Positions 5,470 to 46,930 are shown, counted from the first letter of the stretch. The stretch is DNA of 64,000 nucleotides from Candidatus Tenderia sp. (GCA_031416075.1 JANOSY010000031.1:72912-136911); one strand, 5' to 3'. Program-made: numbers and translations. The notes: generated by a model not told the origin, from the letters alone.

Positions 5470-5598
5470 TCAATGCGGGAAGCCGGAATTTTTAACACTC
5501 ACCCATACAAGATTGGCCAAGATCGGCCAAACCCCTCACCACCGGCAAAATTCAGGCACATATAGACACCAGCAACAGCAATCGCTAACATACGCCCC

Positions 5599-5703: not shown

Positions 5704-5770
5704 CATACCACCCTTGCATTGGCCGGGGGGGAGTATGGTCATTGGAATTAAACCGGCCAGGAGCTCTAAT

Positions 5771-6337: not shown

Positions 6338-6390
6338 AATGAGAGGCCAAACATCCGCCCCCCACTCTTACCAACCATATCCAACACATT

Positions 6391-6426
6391 AAAAGGCCCA
6401 CTACTGGGGGCAGTAGCGGGCCTCTT
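6391..6426 (-). terminator. intrinsic terminator downstream of efp
   Basis: Minus strand AGGCCCGCTACTG-CCCC-CAGTAGTGGGCCT followed by TTT, between convergent genes. Confidence 0.7.
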
Positions 6427-6451
6427 AACTACAACGCGGTTTTAATGAGTA

Positions 6452-7012: not shown

Positions 7013-7051
7013 GGGAGCATCAACCTTGGCTAATAAAAAAAGAGAGGGAGA

Positions 7052-7344
7052 TTATAAATATTTTTCACAAAAATGCACTAAATTCGTCATCATGCCCCCC
7101 AAATCACCCAGTCCATCGACCTGTTTCTCACCATAATTCAGCCAACTGCTCGCACCAAACCACAAAGGGCAACCACCACCCAGCCACTCTTCCCTCTGGC
7201 GGAAAACCTTCCCTATCAGGGATCTACCGGCCCACTGGGCGCAAACAAGGAGTCTTCCCCGCTCACAAAATTGAGGCCACGCACCCACAGCAACCGGTCA
7301 TAACCATCCTGCTCCAGGAATGGGCAGATGCACCGTCAAACCAC
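7052..7344 (-). pseudogene. earP: EF-P arginine rhamnosyltransferase remnant (C-terminal part, frameshifted)
   Basis: Across two frameshifts: GGLTVHL / PFLEQDGYDRLLWVRGLNFVSGEDS / VCAQWAGRSLIGKVFRQREE...NLVHFCEKYL*, resembling EarP 'PFxxQDxYDRLLW..NxVRGEDSFVRAQWAGRP'; sits immediately upstream of efp. Confidence 0.82.
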
Positions 7345-7349
7345 CTTAG

Positions 7350-7422
7350 GGAAGCGCTGAATACCCACTCCGTTTATAGTGGATTTGTCGAGCCATGGCC
7401 AGAGAGGATATTCAGAGACTCA
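7350..7422. mobile_element. IS5-like miniature element or IS scar
   Basis: Imperfect terminal inverted repeats GGAAGCGCTGAATA / TATTCAGAGACTCA (10/14) flanked by direct repeat CTTAG (7345-7349, 7423-7427). Confidence 0.5.
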
Positions 7423-7512
7423 CTTAGAGCTATGTACGTTAAGAGTTCAGGTTAAAATCCTCTGCCAGTCCAAAGCAACAACCCATTGGGTTTTTTTGCA
7501 ATGAGCGCAGAA

Positions 7513-9780: not shown

Positions 9781-9935
9781 CGAAAGTGAGCATTTTGCCG
9801 AGCGGGGTCTGCTTGTGCAAGCAATGATGCCGGTATGTGATGGGATTCTAGGCTACACTGAGGCGCTGTTGAATAGATGGCTGGGGGCGCAACCATTATC
9901 CAATTCTCAGGCATGTAACCAAAGGATAGATAGTA

Positions 9936-10613
9936 ATGCACCACAATATTTCTGATGATTTATCTGCCACATTAAAACGTGTGCCACTGTTTGCGGCCCT
10001 GGATGATGATGAGCTGGAGGCTGTTCGCCCCCATATTGTGACGCGAAGTTATGCCAAAAACAGTGTCTTGATCACTGAGGGTGATGTCACGGACTCGCTC
10101 TATATCATTTTAAAAGGCAAAGTCAAAGTCTACCTGAGCGATGACCGCGGCAGAGAGGTTATCCTGAGCCAGCAGGTACCAGGGGAATATTTTGGTGAAC
10201 TGGCTCTGATTGACGACGCCGAACGCTCTGCTTCGGTGATGACTACAGAACCCTGTACTTTTGCAATTATTACCAAACAGGCATTTAAAGATATCCTGGC
10301 AGCCAACCCCAGTATCGCCATTACCCTGATCAAGGATTTGAGCCACCGCGTCCGCACGCTGACCGACAACGTTAAAAGCCTGGCGTTAATGGATGTTTAC
10401 GGCCGTGTCGCCAAAACCTTGTTGAGCCTGGCCCAACAGTCTGGCGATAAGCTATTAATTGATGAAAAGCTGACGCAACAGGATATCGCCGACCGGGTTG
10501 GGTCTTCACGCGAAATGGTGTCCAAGATACTAAAAGACCTGACCAATGGCGGTTATATTAGTGTTGATCACAAGCGTATTGTAATTAATGAACGGCTGCC
10601 TGCACGTTATTAA
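9936..10613 (+). CDS. Crp/Fnr family cNMP-binding transcriptional regulator
   Basis: FGELAL..RSASV phosphate-binding cassette; HTH LTQQDIADRVGSSREMVS; no FNR cysteine cluster. Confidence 0.93.
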   Translation: MHHNISDDLSATLKRVPLFAALDDDELEAVRPHIVTRSYAKNSVLITEGDVTDSLYIILKGKVKVYLSDDRGREVILSQQVPGEYFGELALIDDAERSASVMTTEPCTFAIITKQAFKDILAANPSIAITLIKDLSHRVRTLTDNVKSLALMDVYGRVAKTLLSLAQQSGDKLLIDEKLTQQDIADRVGSSREMVSKILKDLTNGGYISVDHKRIVINERLPARY

Positions 10614-10746
10614 CACTCTCAGAACAGGCACATGCGTAGCCATCCAATAGCTCATATATAAGATGGCTGTCCCCGGTAACGTTATGACACTGGTGATGTA
10701 ACGGCGGCGCTATCGCCGCCGCAGCGACACAGTTATAATAACCCTC

Positions 10747-13095
10747 ATGTCCAGACCACCTAAACACCGCACCCGCCGCACGCCTTCATCCACCCCATCC
10801 AAACGCCGTCTTTTGCCCGCTTTTTTACTGGCAATGGTACTGCCCGCCATAGTGGTACTGACTGTGTATGTGCTTTACCTTGACCATCTGGTACAACAAA
10901 AATTTGAGGGGAAACGCTGGGCCATTCCATCCCGTGTCTATGCACGGGCGCTGGAGCTGTATCCTCAGGCAGCACTATCATCTGAGTCGCTGGAGAGTGA
11001 GTTAAAACTCATCGGTTATCAGCGTTCCAGCGATGGTATCGCTCCGGGCAGTTACTATCGTACCGGCAATACCTTTGTCATTTCCAGCCGTGCTTTTACC
11101 CACTGGGATGGTGAGGAACCCGCCCGTTCGTTGCGCCTGACAATTGGCCAGAATCGTGTGACATCGCTCACCAACAAACGTAATGGCAAGTCACTCACCC
11201 TGGCCCGCCTGCAGCCAATGGAGATTGGCAGCATCTACCCGGCGCAAAAAGAGGATCGTATCCTGGTGAAGCTCAGCGACCTACCGCCCGAGCTGACCAG
11301 CGCCCTGCAAGCCGTTGAGGATCGCAATTTTCAGGAGCATTACGGTGTTGATATCACCGGTATTGCCCGCGCCGCCTGGAGCAACATACGGGCTGGCCAC
11401 GTGGTTCAAGGGGGCAGCACACTCACCCAGCAGCTGGTAAAAAATTTCTACCTTAATAATGAACGCACCCTCTGGCGCAAGGTTAACGAGGCACTGATGG
11501 CGCTGCTGCTGGAGTACCACTACAGCAAGAATGATATTCTCGAGGCCTATGCCAACGAGATCTACCTCGGGCAGGATGGTGCACGTGCCATTCATGGCTT
11601 CGGCCTGGCAGCACAGTTCTATTTCAACAAACCAGTACAGGAGCTGACACTGCCAGAATCAGCAATGCTGGTAGCAATCCTGCGCGGCCCCACCTACTAC
11701 GATCCGCGCCGTTCACCAAAACGGGCATTGGAACGGCGTAACCAGATTATTGACACCCTGCTGGCGGACGGCTTGATCAAACAGGAGAAGGCATTGCCCG
11801 CCAAGCAGGCGTCACTGGGCGTTATTCCCAAACCGGTGCGCGGCACGGGTCTGCACCCCGCCTTTATCGATCTGGTGAAGAGGCAGTTGCAGAAGGATTA
11901 TCAGGAAGAGGATCTGCGCAGCGAAGGACTACGCATCTTCACCACACTCGACCCAATCGCCCAGCGCACTGCCGAACAAGCGTTGGTGCGCTGGACCGAA
12001 AAACTCGAACAGTCACGCAAATTAAAGGCCAACTTACTCCAGGGCAGCGTGGTGATCAGCCGTGTTGGCAGTGGCGAGGTGAGTGCCGTGGTGGGTGGTC
12101 GCGACGTGCGTTTTGATGGTTTTAATCGCGCCCTTGATATCCGTCGCCCGATCGGATCGCTGGTTAAACCTGCGCTCTACCTCACGGCGTTGATGCAACC
12201 ACAAACGTATACACTGACAACACTGCTCAACGATGAACCGCTGCAACTCAAACAGCCCGGCAACGACAAGGTCTGGGCACCTGAAAATTACGACCGTATC
12301 AGCCACGGCTCCGTACCGCTGATCGATGCCCTGGCCCACTCCTACAATCTGGCGGCGGTGAATCTGGGCATGGCGCTGGGTGTTAATCAGGTGATCAAGA
12401 CACTACATGCACTGGGCATAGAAGCGACCATACCTACCTACCCATCGGTGCTGCTTGGCGCAATGGACCTCTCCCCGATTGAGATAGCGCAGATATACCA
12501 GACACTTGCCGATCAGGGTTTCTACACCCAGCTACGGGCGGTACGTGAAGTGCTGACACAGGATGGCAAACCGCTGCAACACTTTGCCATGGATACCGAA
12601 CAGCGCCTCTCCGTACCTCACGTCTACTTAATCAACTATGCGCTCCGAGAAGCCCTGCGCAATGGCACCGGTGCCAACGTTGCCCAACGCATACCGGCCG
12701 ATATTGAGCTGGGAGGCAAAACCGGTACCACCAATGATCTACGCGACAGCTGGTTTGCGGGCTTTGGCAGTGAATACGTCGGTGTCGTCTGGATGGGCAA
12801 CGATGACAACAAGGTCACCGGTCTTACTGGTGCCAGTGGTGCGCTGCAAGTCTGGGCCGACATCATGACCCGCATCAACCTCAGTCGTGGTGAACAACCA
12901 CCACCTGTTGATATCGAGATGGTACGTATCGATCGCACCACCGGACTACGAGCGGACAATGGCTGCAATGATAGCGCGCGTCTACTCCCCTTCATCAACG
13001 ACACCGCCCCTAATGAGGATGCCCTTTGTGCCCACAGCGCTGTCGAAGATACGCTTAATGATTTGCTTGATAATGTGAAAGGGTGGCTTGAATAA
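10747..13095 (+). CDS. mrcB: penicillin-binding protein 1B
   Basis: UB2H region, EDRNF and GGSTLTQQLVKN glycosyltransferase motifs, SLVK/SYN/KTG transpeptidase motifs. Confidence 0.96.
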   Translation: MSRPPKHRTRRTPSSTPSKRRLLPAFLLAMVLPAIVVLTVYVLYLDHLVQQKFEGKRWAIPSRVYARALELYPQAALSSESLESELKLIGYQRSSDGIAPGSYYRTGNTFVISSRAFTHWDGEEPARSLRLTIGQNRVTSLTNKRNGKSLTLARLQPMEIGSIYPAQKEDRILVKLSDLPPELTSALQAVEDRNFQEHYGVDITGIARAAWSNIRAGHVVQGGSTLTQQLVKNFYLNNERTLWRKVNEALMALLLEYHYSKNDILEAYANEIYLGQDGARAIHGFGLAAQFYFNKPVQELTLPESAMLVAILRGPTYYDPRRSPKRALERRNQIIDTLLADGLIKQEKALPAKQASLGVIPKPVRGTGLHPAFIDLVKRQLQKDYQEEDLRSEGLRIFTTLDPIAQRTAEQALVRWTEKLEQSRKLKANLLQGSVVISRVGSGEVSAVVGGRDVRFDGFNRALDIRRPIGSLVKPALYLTALMQPQTYTLTTLLNDEPLQLKQPGNDKVWAPENYDRISHGSVPLIDALAHSYNLAAVNLGMALGVNQVIKTLHALGIEATIPTYPSVLLGAMDLSPIEIAQIYQTLADQGFYTQLRAVREVLTQDGKPLQHFAMDTEQRLSVPHVYLINYALREALRNGTGANVAQRIPADIELGGKTGTTNDLRDSWFAGFGSEYVGVVWMGNDDNKVTGLTGASGALQVWADIMTRINLSRGEQPPPVDIEMVRIDRTTGLRADNGCNDSARLLPFINDTAPNEDALCAHSAVEDTLNDLLDNVKGWLE

Positions 13096-13577
13096 TGGCT
13101 AATCAGATGACTAAAAGCAGAATCAGACTCTACCTACTGGTCAGCATCACAATGGGCGCTGCAGGTTGCAGCAACATCCCCATTCAAACCACTCAACCTG
13201 CTCAACCTCAACCGATCCAATCTCAACCGGCTCAAACCCAACCTGCTCAACCTATTCAACCTATTCAACCTATTCAACCTGCTCAACCTGCTCAACCTGC
13301 TCAACGCAGCGCTGTTTCGGTACAGCTATTAACACAAGCCGAAACGCTGCAACAGAGCGGCAACCTCAGCGGTGCCATTGCCCAGGTCGAGCGTGCCGTG
13401 CGTATTGAACCACGCAATGCGTATGCCTGGTACAGGCTTGCCACACTCCAACTTGCCGCAGGTGATTTAAACAGGGCAGAACAGTTCGCCCGCCGCTCCA
13501 ACCAATACGCAGCGGGCAACCGGGAGCTCATTGAGGCCAATCAGAAGGTGATGGATGAGGTGAGACGTTTGCGGTAA
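13095..13577 (+). CDS. lpoP: TPR lipoprotein, probable PBP1b activator (LpoP-like)
   Basis: Lipobox-like AAGC, QP-rich linker, TPR 'ERAVRIEPRN'; overlaps the mrcB stop. Confidence 0.75.
   Translation: MANQMTKSRIRLYLLVSITMGAAGCSNIPIQTTQPAQPQPIQSQPAQTQPAQPIQPIQPIQPAQPAQPAQRSAVSVQLLTQAETLQQSGNLSGAIAQVERAVRIEPRNAYAWYRLATLQLAAGDLNRAEQFARRSNQYAAGNRELIEANQKVMDEVRRLR
13239..13301 (+). repeat. 9-bp tandem repeat x7 (CAACCTGCT/CAACCTATT) encoding QPA/QPI
   Basis: Read directly: 1x GCT, 3x ATT and 3x GCT units, with degenerate copies upstream. Confidence 0.95.
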
Positions 13578-13719
13578 TAATCAGCGGGATAAAAACCGTC
13601 ATGCCTGCTCTATAAGGTCACTCATATTTACCTACACCCACGATGTGACCATCTAACGCAGAAACACCGGCATATAGTTACTTCGGGCAGCTCCTGACAA
13701 ACATAGTGAAAAGGAAAAG

Positions 13720-14844
13720 ATGAAACTCTCAACATTATGTCTCGGAAGTGTGGCTATCATCACGGCTTATAGCCATCCGGTTAATGCCGCTGCCCCCTCC
13801 TTTGATGCATAGGTAGTGAGCAACAACCCCATTACTGACGGTGCATGCCAGACTGGTTTTTCCTGTGGCACTGCCGTTGCGGACACCGGCTTTTATCAAC
13901 GAATGGTAATTGACACGGTGGGGCAACAGTTTTTTCAAACCATCATCACCGAAAACAGCGCCAGTGATGCAGAGACACAAGCCCTGTTGGCACTATTTCA
14001 AACCACCGATAATACACAGACCAACACCGATCTACCCTGTCTGACTGAATATAGCTGTGGTGACAAAATCACTGGCCTGAATTTCCTTCAGCAAGAGATT
14101 ACCAACGGTACGTCCATCTGATTTCAAACCGTCACCACAAATCTATCTGCCCCAATAAATAGTGAGAGTGGGCTATACCAACCAACACCACACCACCTCT
14201 TCCATACAGAGGCCGGTCTGCTGTTAAAACCAGGCCAACACCTGGTTGCTGCCGCTGGCGACACATTGGCCGATACTCCGGCCAACCTACATCTTGCCCG
14301 CACTGCGCTGATACCAGACCCTGACTACGTTGAACTGAACCAGCAGAGCGCAGCCGATCAGCAGATTTTTCGCATGGTCATGGATGTGCAGATTACTAAC
14401 GTCATAACAGCGGCGGCGGCCAAATTATCAGCGCAGTTGAATGTGCCGCTGAACATGCCCGACAACTATGAATTACAGGCGCGCGTGTTAACCGCCGAAG
14501 GATGGATTGATTTTATCAGTGATGACCATAACCATATCGCTGCCGCACAAAGGCTGAGCAATGGTGATTGCCCGGAGGTGAGTTCTGCTCTCTACCAGAG
14601 CAAATTGAATGCAGGCAGTGAGTGTGTGCAAATCACCATCCAGGATGGTGGTGTTAATGATGGCGATAGCGCAACAGATGGCAATATCGCACTCATTCTC
14701 GGATCAGTATTGAAGAGAGTAGAACCTTTTTCAATACCACTTCCAAAAGATGAAGCAACACCATCTAACCAAGGTGGCGGAGCGTGGTCCTGGTGCATGT
14801 CACTGGTATTGTTGTTCAGATTGAGAAGATCAAAGATGGGCTGA
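13720..14844 (+). pseudogene. secreted GlyGly-CTERM (rhombosortase target) protein broken by two in-frame stops
   Basis: One reading frame from ATG 13720 (signal peptide MKLSTLCLGS..VNA) to 14844 with TAG at 13810 and TGA at 14119; C-terminal CVQITIQDGGVNDGD and GGGAWSW-hydrophobic-RLRR tail. Confidence 0.75.
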
Positions 14845-15176
14845 GGGTGCGGATCAGTATGACAGCGAAGCGCTGTTTCAAGTATCATTAAAAATAACCA
14901 GCTATGTAGTTATTTCTTGGAACCGCGTACTCAAACTTTCACAAAACATATATAAAATACACTTGCCATTCATTAAAGCACCCCCGCCGAACATCCTGTC
15001 CAACAGGGTTTTATTACAGAGGCCTACAGCTTGCCTCAATCCGCATCATCCTTAACGCGTTTCACAACTTTGCTATTCAGTGCAATCTTTCCAATACTGC
15101 ATCCATGCTTTTTATAACTTACATGTGGATTTAAAGAGTCATTCAGCTGGACCAGACGGCCCCACTATTTTTCAAG

Positions 15177-15641
15177 TTACTTCGGTCCCCAGTAAATTAC
15201 GATAATAACTGCTGCTGCAAATATCAACGTAGCAACCACAAGCAGCCAGTTCGCAACCCGAGGGCTAAGTGTTTCACCCTTCGGCTCATCGTGCACCTCT
15301 GAGGCAGCGATACTGTGATCATATGCGTGCTCTTTGTCGACAATGGGAGTATGGCCCATCGCAGACTTTACCTGATAAGGAAATGTGCCACAGACATTGT
15401 TGTGCCCAGCGCCACAGGTACGATAGTTAAACAGTGTATACAGCGGGTCCCATCCTAAAATGGCAGTCAGCGACGGATACAACCCTATGAATATCAAATA
15501 TACCTCTTTACCTACAAACTCATCACCCTGCATACTCAAAAACGGATATCCGATTACAAGCAGCGCAAGTACACCGCGTATAATTCGATCATTAAGCCCG
15601 ATATTTTGAACAGGACCCAATTTTTTTCTTTTAGCAATCAT
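15177..15641 (-). CDS. DUF2892 (YgaP-like) membrane protein
   Basis: NIGLNDRIIR, GWDPLY..F..RTC, additional C-terminal TM helix. Confidence 0.75.
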   Translation of the reverse strand: MIAKRKKLGPVQNIGLNDRIIRGVLALLVIGYPFLSMQGDEFVGKEVYLIFIGLYPSLTAILGWDPLYTLFNYRTCGAGHNNVCGTFPYQVKSAMGHTPIVDKEHAYDHSIAASEVHDEPKGETLSPRVANWLLVVATLIFAAAVIIVIYWGPK

Positions 15642-15875
15642 ATGAATTACACCTCAGTTAGTATGATCATCCATTACTACTTTAGCCATTAATGAATTAA
15701 AAGTTCTGCTAGTTATCAGCCCTGCACAAACAACCTGTCAAAAATTTAATCATTGGCCACAAATGGGTAGAAGTTAACTACACAACCACCGGATTTAAGC
15801 CCGATAAGTGTGTAGTAACATGGAATGAAACTACGTGTAGTGAAACATCACTATTCATTCACACATCACAGTGGA

Positions 15876-16457
15876 CTAGAAGCGGTATCCGCCACCCAGG
15901 TTCCATGCGTGAACATTGTCTTTTGTACCATCCACACCAGAGATATCTGTATATACCTGGTACTCGGCACGCAACATCCAGTTATTATCAAGGTCATACT
16001 TAAAGCCTGCACCTAAATAGGGTTTTGTGCTGTTCTTACTATCCACTCCCACATTTTGAACAGTTCCGCTATTACTAAGGTCATATCTGGCCATACCCAA
16101 CCGACCAAAGAGACCAAAGCGATCGGCAAGTGGCAATGTTCCCAACGCACTGATCGTCCATGCACTGGCGTCTTGCTTGGCACTTACATTATTGTCATCG
16201 GCATTAAACAGAGTTCCAAAGCTGGTATAACCAATCTCGGCGGCGATATTATTGCCAAACTCATAACCGACCTCACCACGCAGCGTGGTATCAGAGCTAT
16301 CGCAGTTAACGATGTTATCGCAGTATTTGCGCGCTTCTGCTTTGCCTACATCCAGCCCTAGATAAAAACCTGCGCCCTCAGCCTGAACAACATTTGTACT
16401 CAATGCGCCCACTAGCGCGATACATAATGAGGTAGCTTTTGTTTTGTTATTTAACAT
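15876..16457 (-). CDS. OmpA-like 8-stranded outer membrane beta-barrel protein
   Basis: Signal peptide, GFYLG, GYEF, AAEIGY, LRAEYQ, terminal GYRF. Confidence 0.88.
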   Translation of the reverse strand: MLNNKTKATSLCIALVGALSTNVVQAEGAGFYLGLDVGKAEARKYCDNIVNCDSSDTTLRGEVGYEFGNNIAAEIGYTSFGTLFNADDNNVSAKQDASAWTISALGTLPLADRFGLFGRLGMARYDLSNSGTVQNVGVDSKNSTKPYLGAGFKYDLDNNWMLRAEYQVYTDISGVDGTKDNVHAWNLGGGYRF

Positions 16458-16785
16458 GGCAATTCCTTTTTAATGAAGGTTGGGAGAGTCATGGCAACCT
16501 AAAGAGATGGCCGTGGATCAAGAATAAGTTTGCCGGGAAAATTGGTCTGTGCGCTGTATAACATAGCGAAATAAAAACTGCGGGTGTGTGCTGATATCAG
16601 GCTGAGAAGACGATATAAAAGTCGCAAATACACAACTACAGGGGGGTGATAAAACTTCCAGATATTGACTATAAAATTGAGAATCATGTGCAATAAATGA
16701 TTCACAAAAAACAGCTCACACTGTATATATCGCAGATCTTGCTATTCGGACCGGGAAAATAAAAACGGTATTAATACAACAGTAT

Positions 16786-24248: not shown

Positions 24249-24326
24249 ACAAATACCTATGTAAAATCGATCAAGCCGCAAGGGCAAAACGCCCCTGACC
24301 CTTGCACATCACTAATGGAACAACCA

Positions 24327-25565
24327 TTACACCCTCCCAGCCCTGGGCAAAATAGTCTTCACGTAATCGTCCGTCGCATCAAAAACTGGTTCAACCTGAT
24401 TAAACTTCATCATCAGAGGAATCACCTTCGTACGTACCCCCATGCCACGAGAATCGACATAGGCGTAATCACGAAGGATATCCATAATTAACGTATTTCG
24501 TGGCGATCGCTGCCCTGCGATCATCTTGCTAATAGTCATAGAGTTTTGAAATTTTCCGGGGCTAATAACTTCTAACCGGTCCGAGTAATTGGTTACTTCT
24601 ATGTCTACCGCCCTAGTCCAGTCACGATGCGCCAGAGCATTGACGACCGTTTCGCGAACCGCTTCCCAAGGATAAAACTCTATCTTTTCTCGGCGCATGT
24701 GTTCGTCAATGCTAGCCGCCTCTAGTGTAATAAAAGGAGCTATGGCTGCCGCGAACTTTTCGATCAGGCCTTCATCGACCAACTGTTTCCCCCCAGTCTC
24801 GTTGATTTTCCATCTCCCAACGAGCGGCGCATCCAGCACTATATCCAGCAAAGCTTGGTACTCTTTTTCTGCCCCGGCAAAGGCCATTACGCGCAATCCT
24901 GCTTGCCGAAGAAATCGCCGTGGATTGATTCCGAAACAGATCAATCCGGCTACTGAGCAAACTGTATTCCCGAGCCCATCGGAAGCCATCAGGCCAAGGC
25001 CCAATAAACGTTCCTCCCATACTGAGTCTAGCGTGGGAACATCAGGGTCGTTTATTATGTTCGATAGGTAATAGTGCAGTCTCTCCAGGTCAAGATCAGC
25101 CAAAGAGGTCCCCGCCACAGGAAGGACTTCAACATGTAGTAGTCCTCCGCTTTCAAAAAGCCGCAACTGTTGTTCTCGGGAAGCCAGTTCTGAACGATTC
25201 CCCATGCGGATGTAAATCTCTTCGCGATTGTTATGTTTCAACATGTAAGGTTTGGAAATGCCGGACGCAATCGTAATAACAGCAACTTGGTGCTGATCAT
25301 CAATCTTTATCTCCTCATAAAAGGGGATAATTTGAGGAAAGATTTTGTCACGAAATACATTCAGAACCCATTCCTGGGTATTCTTTTGTTGGAGCCCTGA
25401 TATTGTTCCATCATCCTCAACGCCGAGGATCAACCTGCCACCTTGAAGGTTTGCCAAGGCTACTATTTCTTTGGCTAACTGTTCTGGACGAATATCGTCA
25501 CGTTTGAATTCCACCCCGGAATTTTCACCGTTAGCGATGATTTCCAATAATTCAGCTTTTAACAT
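24327..25565 (-). CDS. Schlafen/AlbA_2 domain + HATPase_c_4 (RecG-C-like) protein, candidate defence effector
   Basis: GENSGVEFKR, IVALANLQGG.LILGVEDDG; AVRETVVNALAHRDW, RLEVISPG, RN..I, DSRGMG. Confidence 0.85.
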   Translation of the reverse strand: MLKAELLEIIANGENSGVEFKRDDIRPEQLAKEIVALANLQGGRLILGVEDDGTISGLQQKNTQEWVLNVFRDKIFPQIIPFYEEIKIDDQHQVAVITIASGISKPYMLKHNNREEIYIRMGNRSELASREQQLRLFESGGLLHVEVLPVAGTSLADLDLERLHYYLSNIINDPDVPTLDSVWEERLLGLGLMASDGLGNTVCSVAGLICFGINPRRFLRQAGLRVMAFAGAEKEYQALLDIVLDAPLVGRWKINETGGKQLVDEGLIEKFAAAIAPFITLEAASIDEHMRREKIEFYPWEAVRETVVNALAHRDWTRAVDIEVTNYSDRLEVISPGKFQNSMTISKMIAGQRSPRNTLIMDILRDYAYVDSRGMGVRTKVIPLMMKFNQVEPVFDATDDYVKTILPRAGRV

Positions 25566-25573
25566 GGTTGGCC

Positions 25574-28282
25574 TCAGTATCCGTATTTGGCTTTACGCTG
25601 ATTGAAGGCAGTCTTTCCGCCTTCAAGAATATTGGCGGCTTTATCCCGGATTTGTGTTACATCAATGGCGCCTTGCGATTCCGCAGGCATTTTCGATTGA
25701 CCCTCTTGCACCTCAAAAACACCGATCCATTCGGCATCACCAAACACCGGTATATTTGCGTTGTGCGTTGCAAAGATGAATTGGCGGGCTATTTTTGCCG
25801 ACCTTAATTCCGTCACAATGCGATCCGCAATAAAGGCGTTATCCAGATTATCTTCTGGCTGATCCATAAGCAATGGATCAAGATTCTGCAGCAGCAGAAG
25901 ATGCAAAATCGCTGTGCATTGCTGGCCGGTGGATAACCTATCCAGCGGCCTAAAAGTTTCCGCACCCTCATGCGCTGTGTTCAACTCAATACTGATCAAG
26001 TCAGGCAATTCAATCTCTTCCAGCTTAAGAAGCTGTTCGGTTGTGAGGCGTAACAGAGCATTCTCTACTGTAGATGTCATTCCCCATTTTTTGAAATCCA
26101 ACGACACAAGGGCAGCATCAAAAGTTTCCTCACTGTCGTCACGCCTGGCATCGGCGTATTGCCGCACCATTTCAGCCAGTTTAACCGGCGAAAAATCGTC
26201 TGCTTCATGCACCCAGGCAAGCCTGGCTTCGCCAACGTTCTCCAGTTTGCAGCCCAACAGGAATTGAATCACTGGCGCGCGATCAGCTTCAGGTTTAACC
26301 GTCAATTTCAGTTTGCTTGAAAGTCGTTTATTCAAACGCTTCAGTGATCGCTCAAACTGTGCTGATCTATCCGCACGGATGGATGATAAATCATCAAGGA
26401 TGGCTCTGCGTTGCCTGGATAGCTCGGTTACAACCTTGGTGCGGTTATCAATCATCGTTTTCTTTGGCCGAATTCGCTCAATTTCTTTTAACAAGCGCTG
26501 GAACTCAAGACCAATTTCCTTACCCGTTTTTCCTTCAGAGGCTGGCAACTCCTTGAAAGTTTTTTCCAATACCGACTCTTCTTGTTGTATCGCCGCATCC
26601 AGTGCCTGAGCGTGTGATGCCATCGTGGCTTTCGCAGTGGCATATTTTTGTTGCCACTGACTCAGCAGTGCTTCGGCATCCCCACGGAGCGCATCCAATG
26701 TTGCACGCATCTTGCGCAGGTTTTCGGCATGGGGAAGATGGCCAATGGCTGCGTCACTCAGGAATACGGTATCGGGCAGGCTGTCGCGCACAGCCTGGAA
26801 AGCCGTATCAAGATTTGGGCCTTCTTCTTCTATCGCCCTTTTCTGTAGGCGCTTTTCTGTCTCCAGTAGCGGCACTATTTTAAGTTTATCTTCCAGCCCG
26901 AGTACTTTCAATTGGCCTACCTGTTCTTCCAGTTTCGGAAGAAGTGCGACCTCATCTTCAATGGATGCCACAGCAGCTTGTGCTTCGATCAACTTCTTTC
27001 TGTTCTCTGCCAGCTTACTTAACGACTCCTGAATACGCGCCTCGCCGTCCTGTTGTCCAGCGTCCAGAAACCGGGTCAACAATTGCCGCTGACTGGTTTT
27101 GTCTTGGGCAATTTCGTATATCTCGTTCTGCCCGTAGATTTCAATTCCGGGCAACAGGTCAATCGGCGTAAATGTCGATAAGTTCCCGTTCTCATCCTTC
27201 ACACTGGTACTTTCACCATAACGCCGCGCAACCGTAAAACTTTTGCCATTCATTCGAGAGGAACGGATCACCAGCTCTATTCGGCCCTTGGATGGTTTGC
27301 CCAGATTTTCTTTGACGATTTCATCATGTTTTTTTTGTGCATCTTTGCCTATGGGTTTCAGTTGCAAGGCGTAGCGGATGCACTCAAGTAGTGTCGATTT
27401 CCCTGTTCCTCGTCCACCAATCACTGCATTCAGATGTTCGGAAAATTCAATTTGAACGCCATCCAGATACCCGTCCGTGATTCTCAGGCTTTCGATGCGG
27501 GAATAGTATTTCTCGGTAACGTCAGTGTTCAAACGCACCCGTGATTCAGGGTCTTGAAATGCCAGCTTGAAAGACTCAAAACAGGGCCGGGTCATTTTGA
27601 TCAAGCAGGATGCTTTTGGGTTTGTTAGCGTTTCTGGTTGTTCCACATCCTTGGCATTGATAATGGCAACCGGCTGCTCGCGCTTGTATTCCGGCGTCTT
27701 GTTTTGGAGGATTTGTTGATAGCCATAGCCTTCTCCGTTTGTCAGGTCGTCAAGTGTGCCGGGTATCTGAGCGGCCTTTAGCAAGGGATTTTGCCAGACA
27801 TGGTTAAGTTTTTGATACAGGACGCCATTGTCATCCGTGCAGTGAGCCGCAAAAGCAAATCCACCAAGCTCTTCAACCTTTGCAAGTAGATCCTTTCCGC
27901 TGAAATTTGAAGGCCAAACACCATTGGCGGGATTGGTCAAACCTAGCGCGCCTAAAAAACGGTTGAGTTGATCTATTGACGTATTTTCTGGGAAAAGGCA
28001 CACAAAGTGCGCTTTTTCGGTAGAGGCTATCTCGAAGCCGGGAAACACCAGGATGTCATGTTTATTCATCAGAGACCGGATGGCCTCCACTCCATCCACA
28101 TTGCCGTGATTCGCCAAGCCGATGACCTTGATCTCGTGTTCCTTGGCTATGCGCACCAGCTCTTGGTTGTACTGCTCTTCCGTCATTCCGTGATCACCAC
28201 CACGATAGGCGATGTAACCCGCTGGGTTAACTTGTAGAGCGCACTTCCAGAATCTGGCTTTGGTGTATTGCTCAGACATCAA
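25574..28282 (-). CDS. PHP-like domain + SMC/ABC-type ATPase (Ppl/TrlF-like), candidate defence protein
   Basis: N-terminal PHP-like fold (FWKC, FPGFEI, AHFVCLF), Walker A GGRGTGKST, coiled coil, LSTGQQ signature, MDQPEDNLD, FATHN. Confidence 0.85.
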   Translation of the reverse strand: MMSEQYTKARFWKCALQVNPAGYIAYRGGDHGMTEEQYNQELVRIAKEHEIKVIGLANHGNVDGVEAIRSLMNKHDILVFPGFEIASTEKAHFVCLFPENTSIDQLNRFLGALGLTNPANGVWPSNFSGKDLLAKVEELGGFAFAAHCTDDNGVLYQKLNHVWQNPLLKAAQIPGTLDDLTNGEGYGYQQILQNKTPEYKREQPVAIINAKDVEQPETLTNPKASCLIKMTRPCFESFKLAFQDPESRVRLNTDVTEKYYSRIESLRITDGYLDGVQIEFSEHLNAVIGGRGTGKSTLLECIRYALQLKPIGKDAQKKHDEIVKENLGKPSKGRIELVIRSSRMNGKSFTVARRYGESTSVKDENGNLSTFTPIDLLPGIEIYGQNEIYEIAQDKTSQRQLLTRFLDAGQQDGEARIQESLSKLAENRKKLIEAQAAVASIEDEVALLPKLEEQVGQLKVLGLEDKLKIVPLLETEKRLQKRAIEEEGPNLDTAFQAVRDSLPDTVFLSDAAIGHLPHAENLRKMRATLDALRGDAEALLSQWQQKYATAKATMASHAQALDAAIQQEESVLEKTFKELPASEGKTGKEIGLEFQRLLKEIERIRPKKTMIDNRTKVVTELSRQRRAILDDLSSIRADRSAQFERSLKRLNKRLSSKLKLTVKPEADRAPVIQFLLGCKLENVGEARLAWVHEADDFSPVKLAEMVRQYADARRDDSEETFDAALVSLDFKKWGMTSTVENALLRLTTEQLLKLEEIELPDLISIELNTAHEGAETFRPLDRLSTGQQCTAILHLLLLQNLDPLLMDQPEDNLDNAFIADRIVTELRSAKIARQFIFATHNANIPVFGDAEWIGVFEVQEGQSKMPAESQGAIDVTQIRDKAANILEGGKTAFNQRKAKYGY

Positions 28283-28350
28283 ACGCCTTCCCTTTTATAT
28301 TTATTCTCGTGAATAACATGGCTTCAGCGGATTTAAAAAAATGCCCACAC

Positions 28351-30663
28351 TCAATCCTTGGGAGGGGGGGGAGCCAGCACTTCACGGTTGCCGTTGGACT
28401 GCATCGGGCTGACGACGCCGGCGCGTTCCATATCTTCCACCATGCGGGCGGCGCGATTGTAGCCGATTTTAAGGCGGCGCTGAATGCCAGAGACCGAGGC
28501 GCGGCGCGATTCAGTGACGATCCTGACCGCTTGATCATAAAGCTCGTCGGCCTCATCGCTGCCGTCAAAACCACCGCCCATGCCATCACCATCGGTACTT
28601 GGGCCATCGAGGATCTCGTCGATGTATTCCGGGGTACCGAGCTGTTTCAGTGCATCGACCACCTTATGTACCTCATGGTCGGCTACAAAGGCACCGTGTA
28701 CCCGTGTCGGCACATTGGTGCCGGAGGGTTGATAGAGCATGTCACCGTGGCCAAGCAACGACTCGGCGCCACTCTGGTCGAGGATGGTACGTGAGTCGAT
28801 CTTCGATGAGACCTGAAAGGCGATACGGGTCGGGATATTGGCCTTGATCAGACCGGTGAGTACATCAACCGAGGGGCGCTGTGTGGCCAATACCAGATGG
28901 ATGCCGGAGGCACGGGCCTTCTGCGCCAGGCGGGCAATCAGCTCTTCCACCTTTTTGCCCACCACCATCATCATGTCCGCCAACTCATCCACAATCACCA
29001 CAATGTGTGGCAGCGGCTCCAGCGGCGGACGGATCTCGTCCGGTGACATCATCTCAATAAAGGGATCGCGGATCGGCTCGTCACTCTCCAGCGCCTCTTT
29101 TATCTTTTTGTTGTAGCTGCTCAGGTTTCTCACCCCCACATAGGCCATCAGCCGGTAGCGACGATCCATCTCCACCACACACCAGCGCAGGGCATTGGCG
29201 GCGTTTTTCATATCGGTGACAACCGGCGTCAACAGATGGGGAATCCCCTCATATATAGAGAGTTCCAGCATCTTGGGGTCGATCATGATCATGCGTACCT
29301 CTTCGGCGGTGGCCTTGTAGAGCATGCTCAGGATCATGGCGTTGATACCGACCGACTTACCGGAACCGGTGGTACCGGCCACCAGCAGATGGGGCATTTT
29401 GGCCAGGTCGGCCACCAGCGGCTGACCGGAGATATCCTTGCCCAGCGCCAGGGTGAGGGGCGATAGCGCATCGTCATACTGCTTTGATTGCAGGATCTCG
29501 CTCAGACGTACCGTCTCACGATGTTCGTTGGGGATCTCCAGACCCACCGTAGTTTTGCCAGGGATGATCTCCACCACCCGCACACTGATAGCCGAGAGTG
29601 AACGGGCCAGATCTTTTGAGAGATTGCTGATCTGGCTGACCTTAACACCTACACCAGGCTGCATCTCAAAACGGGTAATAACCGGGCCGGGGTGAACCTC
29701 CACCACTTCAACCTCGATACCAAAATCCTTAAATTTAATCTCCACCAGACGTGAGAGTGCCTCCAACGCCTCCACCGAAAAACCTTTGCCGGTATGTACC
29801 GCCCGATCCAGTAGCGCCAGGGGTGGTAACCCCCGCCTCTTATCTTCGTCGGTCAAAAAGAGTGGCTGCTGACGCTCCTGCTCTACACGTTTACTCACCT
29901 CAACCTTTTTGATCACCGGTTCGATGCGTGGTGGCAACCGTTTTTCCTGCTTTTTAGTCTCTGTCTGCAAGGCTACCGCACGTTCATGGCGCATCTGGCG
30001 CGCCGCCAGCCACTCACGCAGCCCACCAAACCAGCTGCGTACCAGAGCCGCAAACTCCAGACTCCAGCGCCCGGTCACATCCATCAGCCACAACCAGGAG
30101 AGACCGGTAAAGAGTGTCACACCCGTCAGGAAAAGCGCCAGCATAAACAGCGTCGCCCCCACAAAACTGAACGGTTCTTCCAGAGAGTCGCTCACCACCC
30201 CCCCCAGAATCCCCCCCGGCGTCAGTGGCAATCCCAGCGGGGCCTGAAAATGGAGTGCGGCCAATCCACACCCGGCCATGACAGTCAGCACAAAACCACC
30301 AAACCTCAGTACAAACTCTGTGGAGGTGACCGTCTCTTCCGACTTACGATCATGAAATATCAACCAGCCGCTGTAAGCGACCATAATAGGTATTAGATAA
30401 GAGAAGTACCCAAACAGATGCAATCCTACATCCGCAAACCAAGCCCCCACCACACCGCCGCTGTTGGCAATCTCATTGACATGACCACTGTGTGACCAGC
30501 CTGGATCGGTCGGTTCATAACTGCCCAACGAAATCATCAGGTAGAGCGCTACTGCGCCAAACAGGAATAGCGCCCCTTCACGTAAACCGCGCATCCCTTT
30601 AACCAAGCGCGCTGGACGTCCCAATCCACCCGCTGCATCCTTTTTTCGTCTTGCCTGTGCCAA
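28351..30663 (-). CDS. ftsK: DNA translocase FtsK
   Basis: 4TM N-terminal domain, [18 protein letters not shown], gamma domain [13 protein letters not shown]. Confidence 0.98.
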
Positions 30664-40796: not shown

Positions 40797-41102
40797 CTAC
40801 GGTTTAACAGGGTCTCTATCGCTAACAAACAGCTGCTGGTAGTAACCAAGCTGACGCCGTAAAACCTCCCGTTCAACCGGCCGAAATATCTCATCCACCA
40901 CGGTAAATTGGAGCCTCTCAACAACAGCATCGGGGGACTCTGTTTGCCAGGGGATGATGGTGAGCCCCTTCGGCAATTCACTACTACCAAATATGCTTAT
41001 CCCCTTTTTAATCTCCATCACCTCTTCCGCTGGCGCTGTAGTAACCACACCCGCCATTATGAATAGTAGAAAGATCGGGGCCAACCTCAGTCGCACCATC
41101 AT
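40797..41102 (-). CDS. small secreted protein (GltF-like position)
   Basis: Signal peptide, SIFGSSELPKGLTIIPWQ, PVEREVLRRQ; overlaps the upstream TPR gene. Confidence 0.65.
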   Translation of the reverse strand: MMVRLRLAPIFLLFIMAGVVTTAPAEEVMEIKKGISIFGSSELPKGLTIIPWQTESPDAVVERLQFTVVDEIFRPVEREVLRRQLGYYQQLFVSDRDPVKP

Positions 41103-41728
41103 CTATTGGGCCCTGTTGTTGCTGCAGGCGTTTTAAGGCGCTGAGTCAGCTCTGCAATCCACATGGAGACCTGAGCATCATCATTGGAGGTCATAAATTG
41201 ATAACGGATGTAGTGCTGTAACGCCTTTTCGCCCTCAAACAGATAGAGGTCATAAAGAATGCCAAGATTCAGGTAGGCATCGGCATACTCTTCATCCGCC
41301 GCAATGGCACTCTTGTATGCAGCCAGTGCTTCGTTGAAACGTCCACGCTCACGGTAGACCATGCCAAGACGATTTTGGGCTACAGCACTTTTAGGATTCA
41401 GCGCCACCGCCTTTAACAACGCTTCCTCCGCCTCATCGAGGCGACTCATTCTGTGATAGAGAATGCCCAGATTGACATAAGGACCGGAATAATCAGGATG
41501 GCGCTCAATAAAAATATTGAGTTCTTTAATCGCCAGCGGATAGTTACCCTCGCGGATGCTGGTGAGCGCCAGATCATACTCCTGTTTCTGCAGTTCAAGC
41601 TGTCGTAACTGCTCCGCCGTTAAAGGTATAGGCGCTGCATCACTCTGCTCAATCGACGTTGTTGCACATCCACTCAAGTACAGCCCCAGCAAGATTGCCG
41701 CCACCGCTTTACTGCAACGCTTCAACAA
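41099..41728 (-). CDS. TPR lipoprotein (GltE/AglT-like)
   Basis: Lipobox LSGC; 3-4 TPRs (NLGILY, NRLGMVYR, AYLNLGILYDLY). Confidence 0.8.
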   Translation of the reverse strand: MLKRCSKAVAAILLGLYLSGCATTSIEQSDAAPIPLTAEQLRQLELQKQEYDLALTSIREGNYPLAIKELNIFIERHPDYSGPYVNLGILYHRMSRLDEAEEALLKAVALNPKSAVAQNRLGMVYRERGRFNEALAAYKSAIAADEEYADAYLNLGILYDLYLFEGEKALQHYIRYQFMTSNDDAQVSMWIAELTQRLKTPAATTGPNR

Positions 41729-46920: not shown

Positions 46921-46930
46921 TCCTACAACC

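What the first reader, a model, noticed from the sequence alone, without database searches (positions are those of the whole stretch)
24327..28282. Two-gene candidate anti-phage system: Ppl-like PHP-ATPase plus Schlafen/AlbA_2-HATPase
Seen: two co-oriented genes only 8 bp apart, visibly more AT-rich than their flanks. One is a 902-aa PHP-like/SMC-type ABC ATPase. The other is a 412-aa AlbA_2 (E..EFK, GVEDDG) + GHKL-like ATPase protein that ends without the usual C-terminal winged helix. Known: Ppl is described as a single-gene PHP+ATPase anti-phage system, and Schlafen/AlbA_2 domains are RNase/tRNase effectors. Inference: a sensor-effector pair in which the ATPase detects infection and the Schlafen nuclease halts translation. 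I do not recognise this pairing as a named system.
Basis: partly seen in the sequence, partly recalled or inferred. Interest (0 to 1): 0.75.

Follow-up and report, generated by a model that had tools for sequence, protein, structure and literature searches.

The report
Conserved ATPase plus Schlafen defence pair
Two adjacent foreign-looking genes, an SMC-like ATPase with a PHP-type domain and a Schlafen-type RNA nuclease, form a widely conserved pair that often sits inside known anti-phage systems, so it is most likely a phage-defence module not yet described as a pair.

Summary
Two minus-strand genes, 8 bp apart, lie between ftsK and lolA and have lower GC than their flanks.

- **Upstream gene** (902 aa from TTG; more likely 901 aa from the next ATG): passes NCBIfam's TrlF-family model. 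It is homologous to Ppl but far below the Ppl cut-off. It has a divergent PHP domain and an SMC/Rad50-like ABC ATPase with a coiled coil.
- **Downstream gene** (412 aa): a "Schlatpase", meaning a Schlafen nuclease plus a GHKL ATPase domain. The motifs are intact and there is no C-terminal HTH.

The pairing is real. The partner sits directly downstream of TrlF in 64 of 80 related genome loci, down to 30% identity and including an archaeon. The distances of the two proteins co-vary (r=0.85), and one natural fusion exists.

The pair is embedded in type I RM, type III-like RM, BREX and Hma-like loci. TrlF also occurs alone in many lineages. All four close partner homologues on plasmids sit beside TrlF.

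My best reading is a two-gene defence module in which TrlF senses and the Schlatpase cleaves tRNA. Protection and mechanism are untested. I found no description of this pairing in the literature I could search.

The parts
25574..28282 (-). TrlF-family gene (Ppl-like): 902-aa ORF from TTG 28282; the likely start is ATG at 28279 (901 aa); stop at 25574-25576
   Evidence: ORF; translation; NCBIfam NF045780 563.8 bits, cut-off 350; identical 901-aa database protein P0003; RBS and ATG read
27518..28282 (-). N-terminal divergent PHP-like domain (about residues 1-255). Q17/N19, H59, E84, H147 and D212 are invariant in 36 relatives
   Evidence: Pfam PHP E=0.018 here and in 17 of 36 family members, best 9e-7; NCBIfam CehA/McbA metallohydrolase 4.2e-4; invariant columns. 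That Q17/N19 stand where HxH is expected is my reading from recalled PHP motifs, not an alignment
27059..27517 (-). ABC ATPase head, N-terminal half (about residues 256-408), with Walker A G289-x-x-G-x-G-K295
   Evidence: Invariant columns; AF2 model pLDDT 87.3; Foldseek matches to SMC, MukB, JetC, Rad50 and LmuB heads
26324..27058 (-). Long helical coiled-coil insertion (about residues 409-653)
   Evidence: DSSP helices 409-445, 469-500, 519-577 and 606-653 in the AF2 model; Foldseek matches cover SMC-type heads with coiled coils
25577..26323 (-). ABC ATPase head, C-terminal half (about residues 654-902): signature S784-x-G786-Q787, Walker B/D-loop D807-Q-P-E810-D811, H-loop H840
   Evidence: Invariant columns; Pfam AAA_21 and SMC_N
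25566..25573 (-). 8-nt spacer between the two genes; GAGG (25575-25572) overlaps the TrlF stop codon, 6 nt before the partner's ATG
   Evidence: Sequence read. In 55 of 57 intact related pairs the gap is -4 to +32 bp
24327..25565 (-). Schlatpase gene (Schlafen nuclease plus GHKL ATPase-like domain, no HTH), 412 aa; stop at 24327-24329
   Evidence: ORF; Pfam; AF2 pLDDT 89.0; Foldseek 3LMM 1.2e-19, mammalian SLFN N-domains, SAMD9 tRNase, histidine-kinase CA domains
25146..25565 (-). Schlafen (AlbA_2) nuclease domain, about residues 1-140, with E14-x4-E19-x-K21
   Evidence: E14 in 51 of 51, E19 in 49 (D in 2), K21 in 51 of 51 partner sequences. The motif matches the catalytic Ex4(E/D)xK described in the passages
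24330..24683 (-). GHKL/HATPase_c_4 domain, about residues 295-412, with N-box E305...N309 and G374-x-G376
   Evidence: E305, N309 and H313 in 51 of 51; G376 in 51 of 51. E...N with the same spacing binds ATP/Mg in RzAgo (E314, N318; passage)
28280..28350 (-). 71-nt AT-rich spacer between the ftsK stop (28351-28353) and the ATG of the TrlF gene; holds the RBS and possibly a promoter
   Evidence: Sequence read. The consensus scan found no minus-strand promoter here
24288..24326 (-). Spacer between the partner's stop and the lolA ORF; holds a short GC hairpin (GGGC-gtttt-GCCC), not called as a terminator
   Evidence: Sequence read; scan found no terminator there

Best explanation
The two genes form one horizontally acquired, two-gene anti-phage or anti-mobile-element module, inserted between ftsK and lolA.

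Gene 1 (TrlF family, a sister of Ppl) is an SMC/Rad50-like ABC ATPase with a coiled coil and an N-terminal PHP-type phosphoesterase-like domain. I take it to be the part that detects infection. The likely signal is foreign DNA, DNA ends or replication intermediates, or a phage protein. It may also act on nucleic acid itself.

Gene 2 is a stand-alone Schlatpase, a Schlafen nuclease plus a GHKL ATP-binding domain, with no sensor domain and no HTH of its own. I take it to be the effector. Once licensed by TrlF it would assemble in an ATP-dependent way and cut tRNA, stopping translation and aborting the infection.

Shown here: domain identities and intact motifs; conserved adjacency and co-variation; one natural fusion; embedding in known defence loci.

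Inferred: that the proteins bind; which one senses; the substrate (tRNA); that the PHP-like domain is catalytic; and that the module protects at all.
For: Identity:
- TrlF model 563.8 bits against a cut-off of 350; Ppl model E=6.4e-53 over residues 72-896; PADLOC Ppl 3.2e-37.
- All ABC motifs are invariant in 36 relatives, and the fold is SMC/Rad50/JetC/LmuB-like.
- The partner hits SLFN_AlbA_2 and HATPase_c_4. Foldseek finds 3LMM, SLFN11/12/13/14/5 and the SAMD9 tRNase domain.
- Ex4(E/D)xK and the GHKL N-box are invariant in 51 of 51 partners.

Pairing:
- The partner is directly downstream in 64 of 80 genome loci, at 30-76% TrlF identity, across many phyla and including an ANME-1 archaeon.
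- The gap is -4 to +32 bp in 55 of 57 intact pairs.
- Distance matrices correlate at r=0.85, with 0 of 999 permutations as high.
- At least 26 listed close homologues of each protein share a contig length with a homologue of the other.
- P0363 (1354 aa) is a TrlF-Schlatpase fusion, 37% identical to the partner over residues 5-408.
- All 4 of 4 close partner homologues in 72,556 plasmids lie beside TrlF.

Defence context:
- The pair lies between hsdS and hsdR on plasmid L001 and in L014, L019 and L080.
- It lies between pglX and pglZ on plasmid L002, and before PglZ-BrxL in L009 and L018.
- It lies between a Mod-like methylase and a Res-like helicase in L043 and L044.
- It lies inside DUF1156/DUF499/SNF2 (Hma-like) loci in L072, L078 and L079.
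- About 25 of 80 loci have RM, BREX or Hma-type genes within three ORFs.
- Flanks are otherwise very diverse: 438 ORFs fall into 388 clusters. With the low GC3, this points to mobility.

Mechanistic precedent (papers, passages read):
- Prokaryotic Schlafens protect against phage by cutting tRNA.
- In SLFN-pAgo, the GHKL domain's ATP binding drives tetramerisation and a separate sensor licenses tRNA cleavage.
- ABC ATPase plus nuclease pairs such as WonAB and HEC-02/03 need both genes.
Against: - No experiment of any kind supports protection here.
- In this window the pair has no defence neighbours: 0 of 48 other ORFs scanned.
- TrlF stands alone in 16 of 80 genome loci and 18 of 22 full-length plasmid hits, scattered over the tree as at least 9 separate groups. 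TrlF probably works without the partner. That fits an autonomous TrlF with an accessory as well as it fits a sensor-effector pair.
- The PHP-like domain is divergent. Pfam E is 0.018 in this protein, and the invariant Q17 and N19 lie where I expect the HxH metal ligands. It may not be a nuclease.
- The 80 loci are the best-scoring of at least 591, not a random sample.
- Co-variation of two genes carried in one genome is partly expected from shared descent.
- Five of seven Schlafen genes tested by others gave no protection on the phages used. I could not see which architectures those were.
Confidence: 0.55

Rival explanations
1. Two layers rather than sensor and effector. TrlF is a self-sufficient, Ppl-like defence enzyme with ATPase sensor and PHP nuclease in one chain. 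The Schlatpase is an add-on back-up that fires, by tRNA cleavage and abortive infection, only when TrlF is blocked or overwhelmed by the phage.
For: TrlF is often solo (16 of 80 genome loci; 18 of 22 plasmids) and the solos are scattered in the tree, whereas close partner homologues on plasmids are never without TrlF (4 of 4). Ppl is treated in the literature as a system of its own (passages; its single-gene nature is recalled). A BREX survey calls Schlafen RNases 'backup suicidal effectors' (passage).
Against: Nothing shows that the PHP-like domain is catalytic, and its motif I looks altered. Tight coupling, co-variation and the fusion protein fit direct control at least as well.
Confidence: 0.25
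2. A toxin-antitoxin-like addiction module. The Schlatpase is a toxin held in check by TrlF, and the pair mainly stabilises the mobile DNA or RM/BREX locus that carries it.
For: A nuclease next to an ATPase on plasmids and inside mobile defence loci, with toxin-antitoxin genes nearby in several loci (ParE, HigB, HipA, Zeta). In WonAB the nuclease is toxic when overproduced (passage).
Against: A 900-aa SMC-like ATPase with fully conserved catalytic motifs is far more than an antitoxin needs. Solo TrlF is common, which an antitoxin without its toxin would not explain. In WonAB a simple sequestration model was excluded.
Confidence: 0.08
3. A cellular DNA-repair or chromosome-maintenance pair (SbcCD/Rad50-Mre11-like) with an RNA-binding regulator, unrelated to defence. 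This is how automatic annotation labels it ('DNA repair protein', 'RecN', 'double-strand break repair').
For: The fold resembles Rad50, SMC and RecF. Source names include 'DNA repair ATPase RecN', and RefSeq attaches a GO term for double-strand break repair. In this window it sits beside ftsK and rarA.
Against: Patchy distribution with 67-92% identical copies in unrelated phyla; low GC3 against the flanks; 388 different flank clusters; repeated embedding within RM, BREX and Hma loci. The names are electronic inferences.
Confidence: 0.05
4. An accessory of restriction-type systems: the pair only works together with the type I RM, BREX or Hma genes that surround it elsewhere, and the copy in this window is an orphan without function.
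For: Eight genome loci and two plasmids have the pair sandwiched between subunits of such systems.
Against: Four unrelated host systems are involved. Most loci (about 55 of 80) have no such genes within three ORFs. The window copy and many others have intact motifs in housekeeping contexts. Genes embedded in Hma systems worked on their own when tested by others (passage).
Confidence: 0.07

Closest known systems
Ppl (single PHP plus ABC-ATPase defence protein; cited to Gao et al. 2020 in the passages; the paper itself was not seen)
   Same: Same architecture, and homologous over nearly the whole length: NCBIfam Ppl model E=6.4e-53 over residues 72-896; PADLOC Ppl model 3.2e-37.
   Different: It scores 179.9 against the Ppl cut-off of 1000 and instead passes the TrlF-family model. 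The PADLOC Ppl model aligns only from residue 224, so the N-terminal domain differs. Here a dedicated Schlatpase gene follows.
Prokaryotic Schlafens (pSlfn) and the 'Schlatpase' supradomain (bioRxiv 10.1101/2025.07.24.666596; 10.64898/2026.05.29.728809)
   Same: Schlafen Ex4(E/D)xK nuclease plus PF13749 GHKL domain, with the ATP-binding E...N pair. P0001 aligns with the N-terminal third of PADLOC's SLFN-type pAgo model, 2e-17.
   Different: No fused sensor (pAgo, NACHT, Ig-like, DUF262) and no HTH, which more than 90% of Schlatpase tails are said to carry. The candidate sensor is a separate TrlF gene. Neither preprint contains 'PHP', and the pSlfn preprint has no 'ABC' or 'operon'.
Two-gene ABC-ATPase plus nuclease defence systems: PARIS (AriAB), WonAB, HEC-02/HEC-03, Lamassu, Septu
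   Same: An ABC ATPase encoded next to a nuclease effector. In WonAB and HEC-02/03 both genes are needed, and WonAB shuts down translation (passages). LmuB and JetC are among the structural matches.
   Different: The effector here is a Schlafen-GHKL protein, not TOPRIM, PD-(D/E)xK, NERD, PIN or HNH. The ATPase carries its own PHP-like domain. PADLOC models of these systems hit only weakly, 1e-5 to 1e-10.
SbcCD / Mre11-Rad50
   Same: An SMC-like ABC ATPase with a coiled coil, combined with a metal-phosphoesterase-type domain.
   Different: The phosphoesterase is PHP-like, not calcineurin-like, and is fused in one chain. There is no CxxC zinc hook in the sequence. Distribution is mobile and linked to defence loci.

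Membership tests
TrlF family AAA-like ATPase (NCBIfam NF045780) | Whole-protein score at or above the curated cut-off of the equivalog model | tested here: met
   563.8 bits against a cut-off of 350, aligned 9-901 of the protein to 3-944 of the model. RefSeq gives the same name to 50%-identical plasmid homologues.
Ppl (NCBIfam NF042955; PADLOC PDLC02208) | Score at or above the curated equivalog cut-off | tested here: not met
   179.9 bits against a cut-off of 1000. The PADLOC Ppl model gives E=3.2e-37 but covers only residues 224-896.
Ppl | PHP-type domain fused N-terminally to an ABC ATPase | tested here: met
   Pfam PHP in 17 of 36 family members, best 9e-7, and 0.018 in this protein. ABC motifs are invariant.
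Ppl | Acts as a single gene (recalled, not seen in a paper here) | tested here: inconclusive
   Here a conserved second gene follows (64 of 80 loci), yet solo TrlF genes are common. No functional test exists.
PHP phosphoesterase domain | Full set of metal-binding His/Asp/Glu motifs, including N-terminal HxH (motif list recalled) | tested here: inconclusive
   Invariant H59, E84, H147 and D212, but invariant Q17 and N19 near the N-terminus where I expect HxH. A profile comparison with a DnaE2 PHP domain gave only E=0.069 over 58 columns. No PHP structure match could be isolated from the whole-protein fold search.
ABC ATPase, SMC/Rad50-like | Walker A, Q-loop, signature, Walker B/D-loop, H-loop, and a coiled coil inserted between the head halves | tested here: met
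   G289..K295, Q385, S784-G786-Q787, D807..E810-D811 and H840 are invariant or nearly so. Helices span 409-653. Foldseek finds SMC, MukB, JetC, Rad50 and LmuB at 4e-13 to 1e-6.
Prokaryotic Schlafen nuclease (pSlfn) | PF04326 domain with the catalytic Ex4(E/D)xK motif | tested here: met
   81.1 bits against a cut-off of 25.3. The motif is kept in 51 of 51 partners. Foldseek matches SLFN and SAMD9 nuclease domains.
Schlatpase supradomain (SLFN plus PF13749 GHKL) | Both domains in one chain, with the ATP/Mg-binding E...N of the GHKL N-box | tested here: met
   PF13749 scores 57.2 bits against a cut-off of 26. E305 and N309 are kept in 51 of 51, matching E314/N318 of RzAgo (passage). Histidine-kinase CA domains appear among the fold matches.
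Schlatpase / pSlfn | tRNA cleavage and ATP-dependent oligomerisation | not testable with these tools
   Known only for RorSlfn5 and RzAgo.
Anti-phage defence system (generic) | Protection against phage when expressed | not testable with these tools
   Only genomic context is available: embedding in type I RM, type III-like RM, BREX and Hma-like loci.
Named multi-gene system in PADLOC-DB v2.0.0 | Both proteins match components of one named system | tested here: not met
   P0002 matches Ppl (single gene) and weakly other ATPases. P0001 matches pAgo, Aga and PDC-S50 models only in part. Newer PADLOC or DefenseFinder releases could not be run.

The most novel reading that the evidence does not exclude
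TrlF-Schlatpase is a distinct, ancient and widespread two-gene immune system. In it an SMC/Rad50-like ATPase with a re-purposed PHP domain (QxN in place of HxH, so perhaps a ligand or DNA-end reader rather than a nuclease) controls in trans the ATP-driven assembly of a Schlafen tRNase. This would be the first case of a Schlafen effector governed by an SMC-type DNA sensor. It could also explain why stand-alone Schlafen-GHKL genes may fail to protect when cloned without their neighbour. The frequent solo TrlF genes would then be a stripped-down form that keeps only the direct, DNA-level arm.
Probability: 0.3. Interest if true: 0.75.

Novelty: new variant of a known kind. Interest (0 to 1): 0.62.

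Why it matters
- Schlafen nucleases are antiviral effectors in both humans and bacteria. How the most common bacterial form, Schlafen plus GHKL, is switched on is known only for one fusion to Argonaute. A dedicated, separately encoded SMC-like partner would add a new control logic and a testable one.
- It would give a function to the TrlF family, which NCBI names but for which I found no paper.
- It would show that relatives of Ppl come in one-gene and two-gene forms.
- The pair is compact (4 kb) and found in many phyla. It is repeatedly nested inside type I RM, BREX, type III-like and Hma loci, so it is a good case for 'guilt by embedding' and for studying how layered defences cooperate.

Tried and rejected
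- **Complex prediction (result):** I sent the TrlF head as two chains (residues 256-408 and 655-902) with the full partner. The verdict was 'no answer', score 0.00 against a mark of 0.32, and controls were not run. This says nothing for or against binding. The PHP-like domain and the coiled coil were left out because of the size limit.
- **Origin of the name TrlF:** full-text searches and one look-up gave only unrelated meanings. My guess that it relates to Campylobacter 'rlo' genes also led nowhere.
- **Literature on the pairing:** searches, and term look-ups in nine papers, found no PHP/ABC-ATPase plus Schlafen pair. Krishnan et al. 2020 on ABC ATPases is not held and may bear on this.
- **Sequence search of solved structures:** only weak SMC hits for TrlF, and 3LMM for the partner.
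- **Profile comparison of the TrlF N-terminus with a DnaE2 PHP domain:** too weak to map motifs.
- **Longer forms of the partner:** 3 proteins. P0394 shows no similarity to TrlF. P0392 and P0393 show only Schlatpase or DUF4062 domains in Pfam and were not compared with TrlF. The only fusion seen is P0363, from the representative search. Its cluster size could not be looked up.
- **Mobile-element signs in the window:** no flanking direct or inverted repeats and no tRNA gene in the window. No consensus promoter or terminator above shuffled expectation.
- **E. coli genomes:** no match to the Citrobacter plasmid copy of the pair at megablast level.
- **Phage records:** only distant relatives, 24-33% identity.

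Full report
**1. What is in the window**

One search lists two minus-strand ORFs: 25574..28282 (902 aa, TTG start) and 24327..25565 (412 aa, ATG start). The spacer is 8 nt, and a GAGG overlaps the upstream stop codon. The second codon of the long ORF is an ATG (28279) preceded by GGGAAGG. The protein collection holds a 100% identical 901-aa entry (P0003), so I take 901 aa as the likely product.

The flanks are housekeeping genes on the same strand: ftsK (28351..30663) upstream, then lolA, rarA/mgsA, serS and cysG downstream. The pair therefore fills the ftsK-lolA gap, leaving 71 nt and 39 nt of spacer.

The pair's GC is 0.482 against 0.56-0.57 for the flanks, and its GC3 is 0.48-0.50 against 0.61-0.65. 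This is suggestive of foreign origin but not extreme: 11.8% of 601 windows of equal size are as AT-rich or more. I found no flanking repeats, no tRNA gene anywhere in the window, and no other recognisable defence gene among 48 further ORFs of the window.

**2. The upstream protein**

- **Family.** NCBIfam places it in the "TrlF family AAA-like ATPase" (563.8 bits, cut-off 350, nearly end to end). The Ppl model also aligns over residues 72-896 (E=6.4e-53) but reaches only 179.9 bits against a cut-off of 1000. PADLOC's Ppl model gives 3.2e-37 from residue 224 onward. It is thus a sister of Ppl, not Ppl.
- **Conserved residues.** An alignment of 36 relatives (25-86% identical) keeps every ABC ATPase motif invariant or nearly so. 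It also keeps a set of N-terminal residues invariant: Q17, N19, H59, E84, H147, D212.
- **PHP domain.** Pfam's PHP model hits this protein weakly (0.018) but hits 17 of the 36 relatives, best 9e-7. From recalled PHP motifs I read Q17/N19 as standing where HxH is expected. I could not confirm that by alignment, so whether the domain is catalytic is open.
- **Structure.** The AlphaFold2 model (pLDDT 87.3) shows a head split by about 245 residues of long helices. Foldseek returns SMC, MukB, JetC, Rad50, cohesin/condensin and Lamassu LmuB. No solved close relative exists by sequence.

**3. The downstream protein**

- **Domains.** Pfam finds SLFN_AlbA_2 (1.2e-22) and HATPase_c_4 (1.8e-15), the latter ending at residue 405 of 412.
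- **Structure.** The model (pLDDT 89.0) matches 3LMM, a bacterial protein of the same type with a longer tail (1.2e-19). It then matches the nuclease domains of SLFN12, 11, 13, 14 and 5, the SAMD9 tRNase domain, and histidine-kinase catalytic domains.
- **Motifs.** In 51 partner sequences E14, K21, E305, N309 and H313 are kept in 51 of 51, and E19 is E in 49 and D in 2.
- **Match to published work.** These are the Ex4(E/D)xK nuclease motif and the ATP/Mg-binding pair described for bacterial Schlafens (bioRxiv 10.1101/2025.07.24.666596, sections 3 and 12 read) and for the SLFN-pAgo RzAgo (bioRxiv 10.64898/2026.05.29.728809, passages).
- **Name and rarity.** The second preprint names the SLFN+GHKL combination "Schlatpase". 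It states that 58.6% of 103,533 prokaryotic SLFN proteins have it and that more than 90% of their tails hold an HTH. Partner lengths in the 57 intact related pairs are 342-482 aa, mostly about 400-430.

**4. Is the pair conserved?**

Yes.
- **Close homologues.** Both proteins have 67-92% identical homologues in unrelated phyla. At least 26 listed TrlF hits share a longest-contig length with a listed partner hit.
- **Genome scan.** tblastn with the partner finds it directly downstream on the same strand in 64 of 80, at TrlF identities of 30-76%. One of these is an ANME-1 archaeon. Three partners are cut by contig ends, and one TrlF is frameshifted.
- **The 16 loci without a partner:** L012, L023, L034, L035, L036, L042, L045, L046, L048, L050, L051, L053, L065, L066, L076, L077.
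- **Gene spacing.** In 55 of 57 intact pairs (55 genome loci and 2 plasmids) the gap is -4 to +32 bp.
- **Co-variation.** Pairwise distances of the two proteins over 51 pairs correlate at r=0.85. None of 999 label permutations reaches that. Shared ancestry contributes to this, so it shows co-inheritance as a unit rather than physical contact.
- **Fusion.** One representative protein, P0363 (1354 aa), is a fusion: TrlF over residues 86-941, then a full partner over 955-1354, 37% identical. I could not learn how many sequences it stands for.

**5. The dependency is asymmetric**

- On plasmids, 22 records hold a full-length TrlF, but only 4 hold a close partner homologue. All 4 are next to TrlF.
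- In a FastTree tree of 51 paired and 17 solo TrlF proteins, midpoint-rooted, the solos fall into at least 9 separate groups, one of them a Bacillota clade.
- So TrlF persists without the partner, while this HTH-less Schlatpase subfamily was not seen without TrlF in the one collection where I could ask.

**6. Context elsewhere**

I scanned 325 flanking ORFs of the 80 loci against Pfam: up to three per side, 100 aa or more (one search failed on size).
- **Type I RM:** the pair lies between hsdM-hsdS and hsdR in L014, L019, L080 and plasmid L001.
- **BREX:** it lies between pglX and pglZ on plasmid L002, and before PglZ-BrxL in L009 and L018.
- **Type III-like RM:** it lies between an N6_N4 methylase and a Res-type helicase in L043 and L044 (L044's helicase was assigned by BLAST cluster only).
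- **Hma-like:** it lies inside DUF1156/DUF499/SNF2-NOV_C loci in L072, L078 and L079.
- **Solo TrlF genes** follow hsdMSR in L012 (with McrBC after it) and L036. They sit in BREX loci in L045 and probably L051.
- **Overall count:** about 25 of 80 loci have RM, BREX or Hma-type genes within three ORFs.
- **The rest:** others carry toxin-antitoxin genes, integrases, transposases or conjugation genes, and a good number are plainly housekeeping (for example L007, L008, L016, L025, L041).
- **Flank diversity:** 438 ORFs fall into 388 clusters.

I have no matched baseline of my own. The pSlfn preprint reports 1.9 defence genes within 10 kb for pSlfn genes against 0.13-0.19 for ribosomal protein genes, by its own method. 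Nesting inside four unrelated multi-gene systems is the pattern used as "guilt by embedding" in bioRxiv 10.1101/2024.01.29.577857, where seven of nine embedded candidates protected (passages).

**7. How it most likely works**

Inference from the anatomy and from relatives:
- TrlF is the ATP-driven, SMC/Rad50-like component able to engage DNA or a phage factor.
- The Schlatpase is a tRNA-cutting effector whose GHKL domain mediates ATP-dependent assembly, as in RzAgo.
- Because it has no sensor or HTH of its own, TrlF supplies the control in trans.
- Two-gene ABC ATPase plus nuclease systems with this logic are known. WonAB needs both genes and causes translation shut-down (PMC12137116, passages). 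HEC-02/03 are another example.

The main rival is that TrlF is autonomous, like Ppl, and the Schlatpase is a back-up suicidal arm. The solo TrlF genes favour this. A BREX survey uses that very term for Schlafen RNases (PMC12839542, passages). Toxin-antitoxin, DNA-repair and RM-accessory readings are less likely, for the reasons given under the rival explanations.

**8. Is it known?**

- The parts are known kinds: a Ppl-like ATPase family named by NCBI, and the pSlfn/Schlatpase effector family.
- I found no text describing the pair. This rests on full-text searches.
- Term look-ups gave the same answer. "PHP" or "TrlF" is absent from the two Schlafen preprints and the BREX paper. "Schlafen" is absent from the embedded-defence, modularity-network and DefensePredictor papers.
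- PADLOC-DB v2.0.0 has no system joining the two.
- The CRISPR-linked Schlafen paper (PMC13462974) was seen only as a search listing.

**9. Verdict**

This is a conserved two-gene module with strong genomic signs of a defence role. I rate it a new variant of known kinds. Function and mechanism are untested.

Noticed in passing
window 27518-28282 (residues 17 and 19 of the TrlF protein): Q17 and N19 are invariant in 36 relatives of 25-86% identity, at the spot where I expect the HxH metal ligands of a PHP domain. H59, E84, H147 and D212 are kept. The site may be re-purposed rather than lost.
   Followed up: partly
L045 (Oribacterium asaccharolyticum) 3670-15883: A BREX locus with a different, longer (526 aa) Schlafen-GHKL protein before PglZ-BrxL, then a solo TrlF, then a 993-aa TOTE-type primase-helicase-PLD protein. 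Schlafen and TrlF are in one locus but not adjacent.
   Followed up: no
L088 (Halapricum desulfuricans plasmid) 2038-12529: An archaeal Hma-like locus in which a 26%-identical TrlF is followed by a DUF262 (GmrSD-like) protein rather than a Schlatpase, between DUF1156 and DUF499 genes. This may be an alternative partner or a second embedded system.
   Followed up: no
L035 12695-17563: A solo TrlF is followed on the same strand by a LexA-like S24 peptidase, an ImuB-like protein and a DnaE2-like polymerase, a damage-inducible mutagenesis cassette.
   Followed up: no
proteins P0392, P0393, P0394: Rare longer relatives of the partner. P0392 (824 aa) has DUF4062 and a second HATPase_c_4 before the Schlafen domain. 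P0393 (785 aa) has about 380 unassigned N-terminal residues. P0394 (1203 aa) has a truncated GHKL domain followed by about 870 residues with no similarity to TrlF.
   Followed up: partly
phage record OM046624.1 / NC_070913.1, 8633-11230 (hits H31, H32): Yersinia phage vB_YenM_42.18 encodes a full-length, 24%-identical relative of the TrlF/Ppl type, annotated 'chromosome partition protein'.
   Followed up: no
L027 13942-18215 and L029 7574-8332: Next to two paired loci lie an Hsp70-like protein with two unassigned genes (L027) and a DUF2760 protein (L029), which I recall as being linked to Hsp70-type genes.
   Followed up: no
window 41099-52288, minus strand: A run of seven co-oriented genes: TPR-repeat proteins of 209, 931 and 623 aa, an 839-aa protein with a Laminin_G_3 domain, and three proteins with no Pfam match. 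Function unknown.
   Followed up: no
window 7513-10613: A CHASE2-domain adenylate/guanylate cyclase lies divergently next to a Crp-type cyclic-nucleotide-binding regulator.
   Followed up: no
window 15000-16500: This is the most AT-rich stretch of the part of the window I profiled (15-38 kb; GC 0.43), lower than the pair itself. It holds an OmpA-like beta-barrel gene and a YgaP-like membrane protein gene.
   Followed up: no
L037 and L038 (two contigs of one MAG): The same pair with identical upstream flanks appears on two contigs of one assembly, with different downstream genes. This is either a duplication or an assembly artefact. I dropped L038 before the co-variation test.
   Followed up: partly
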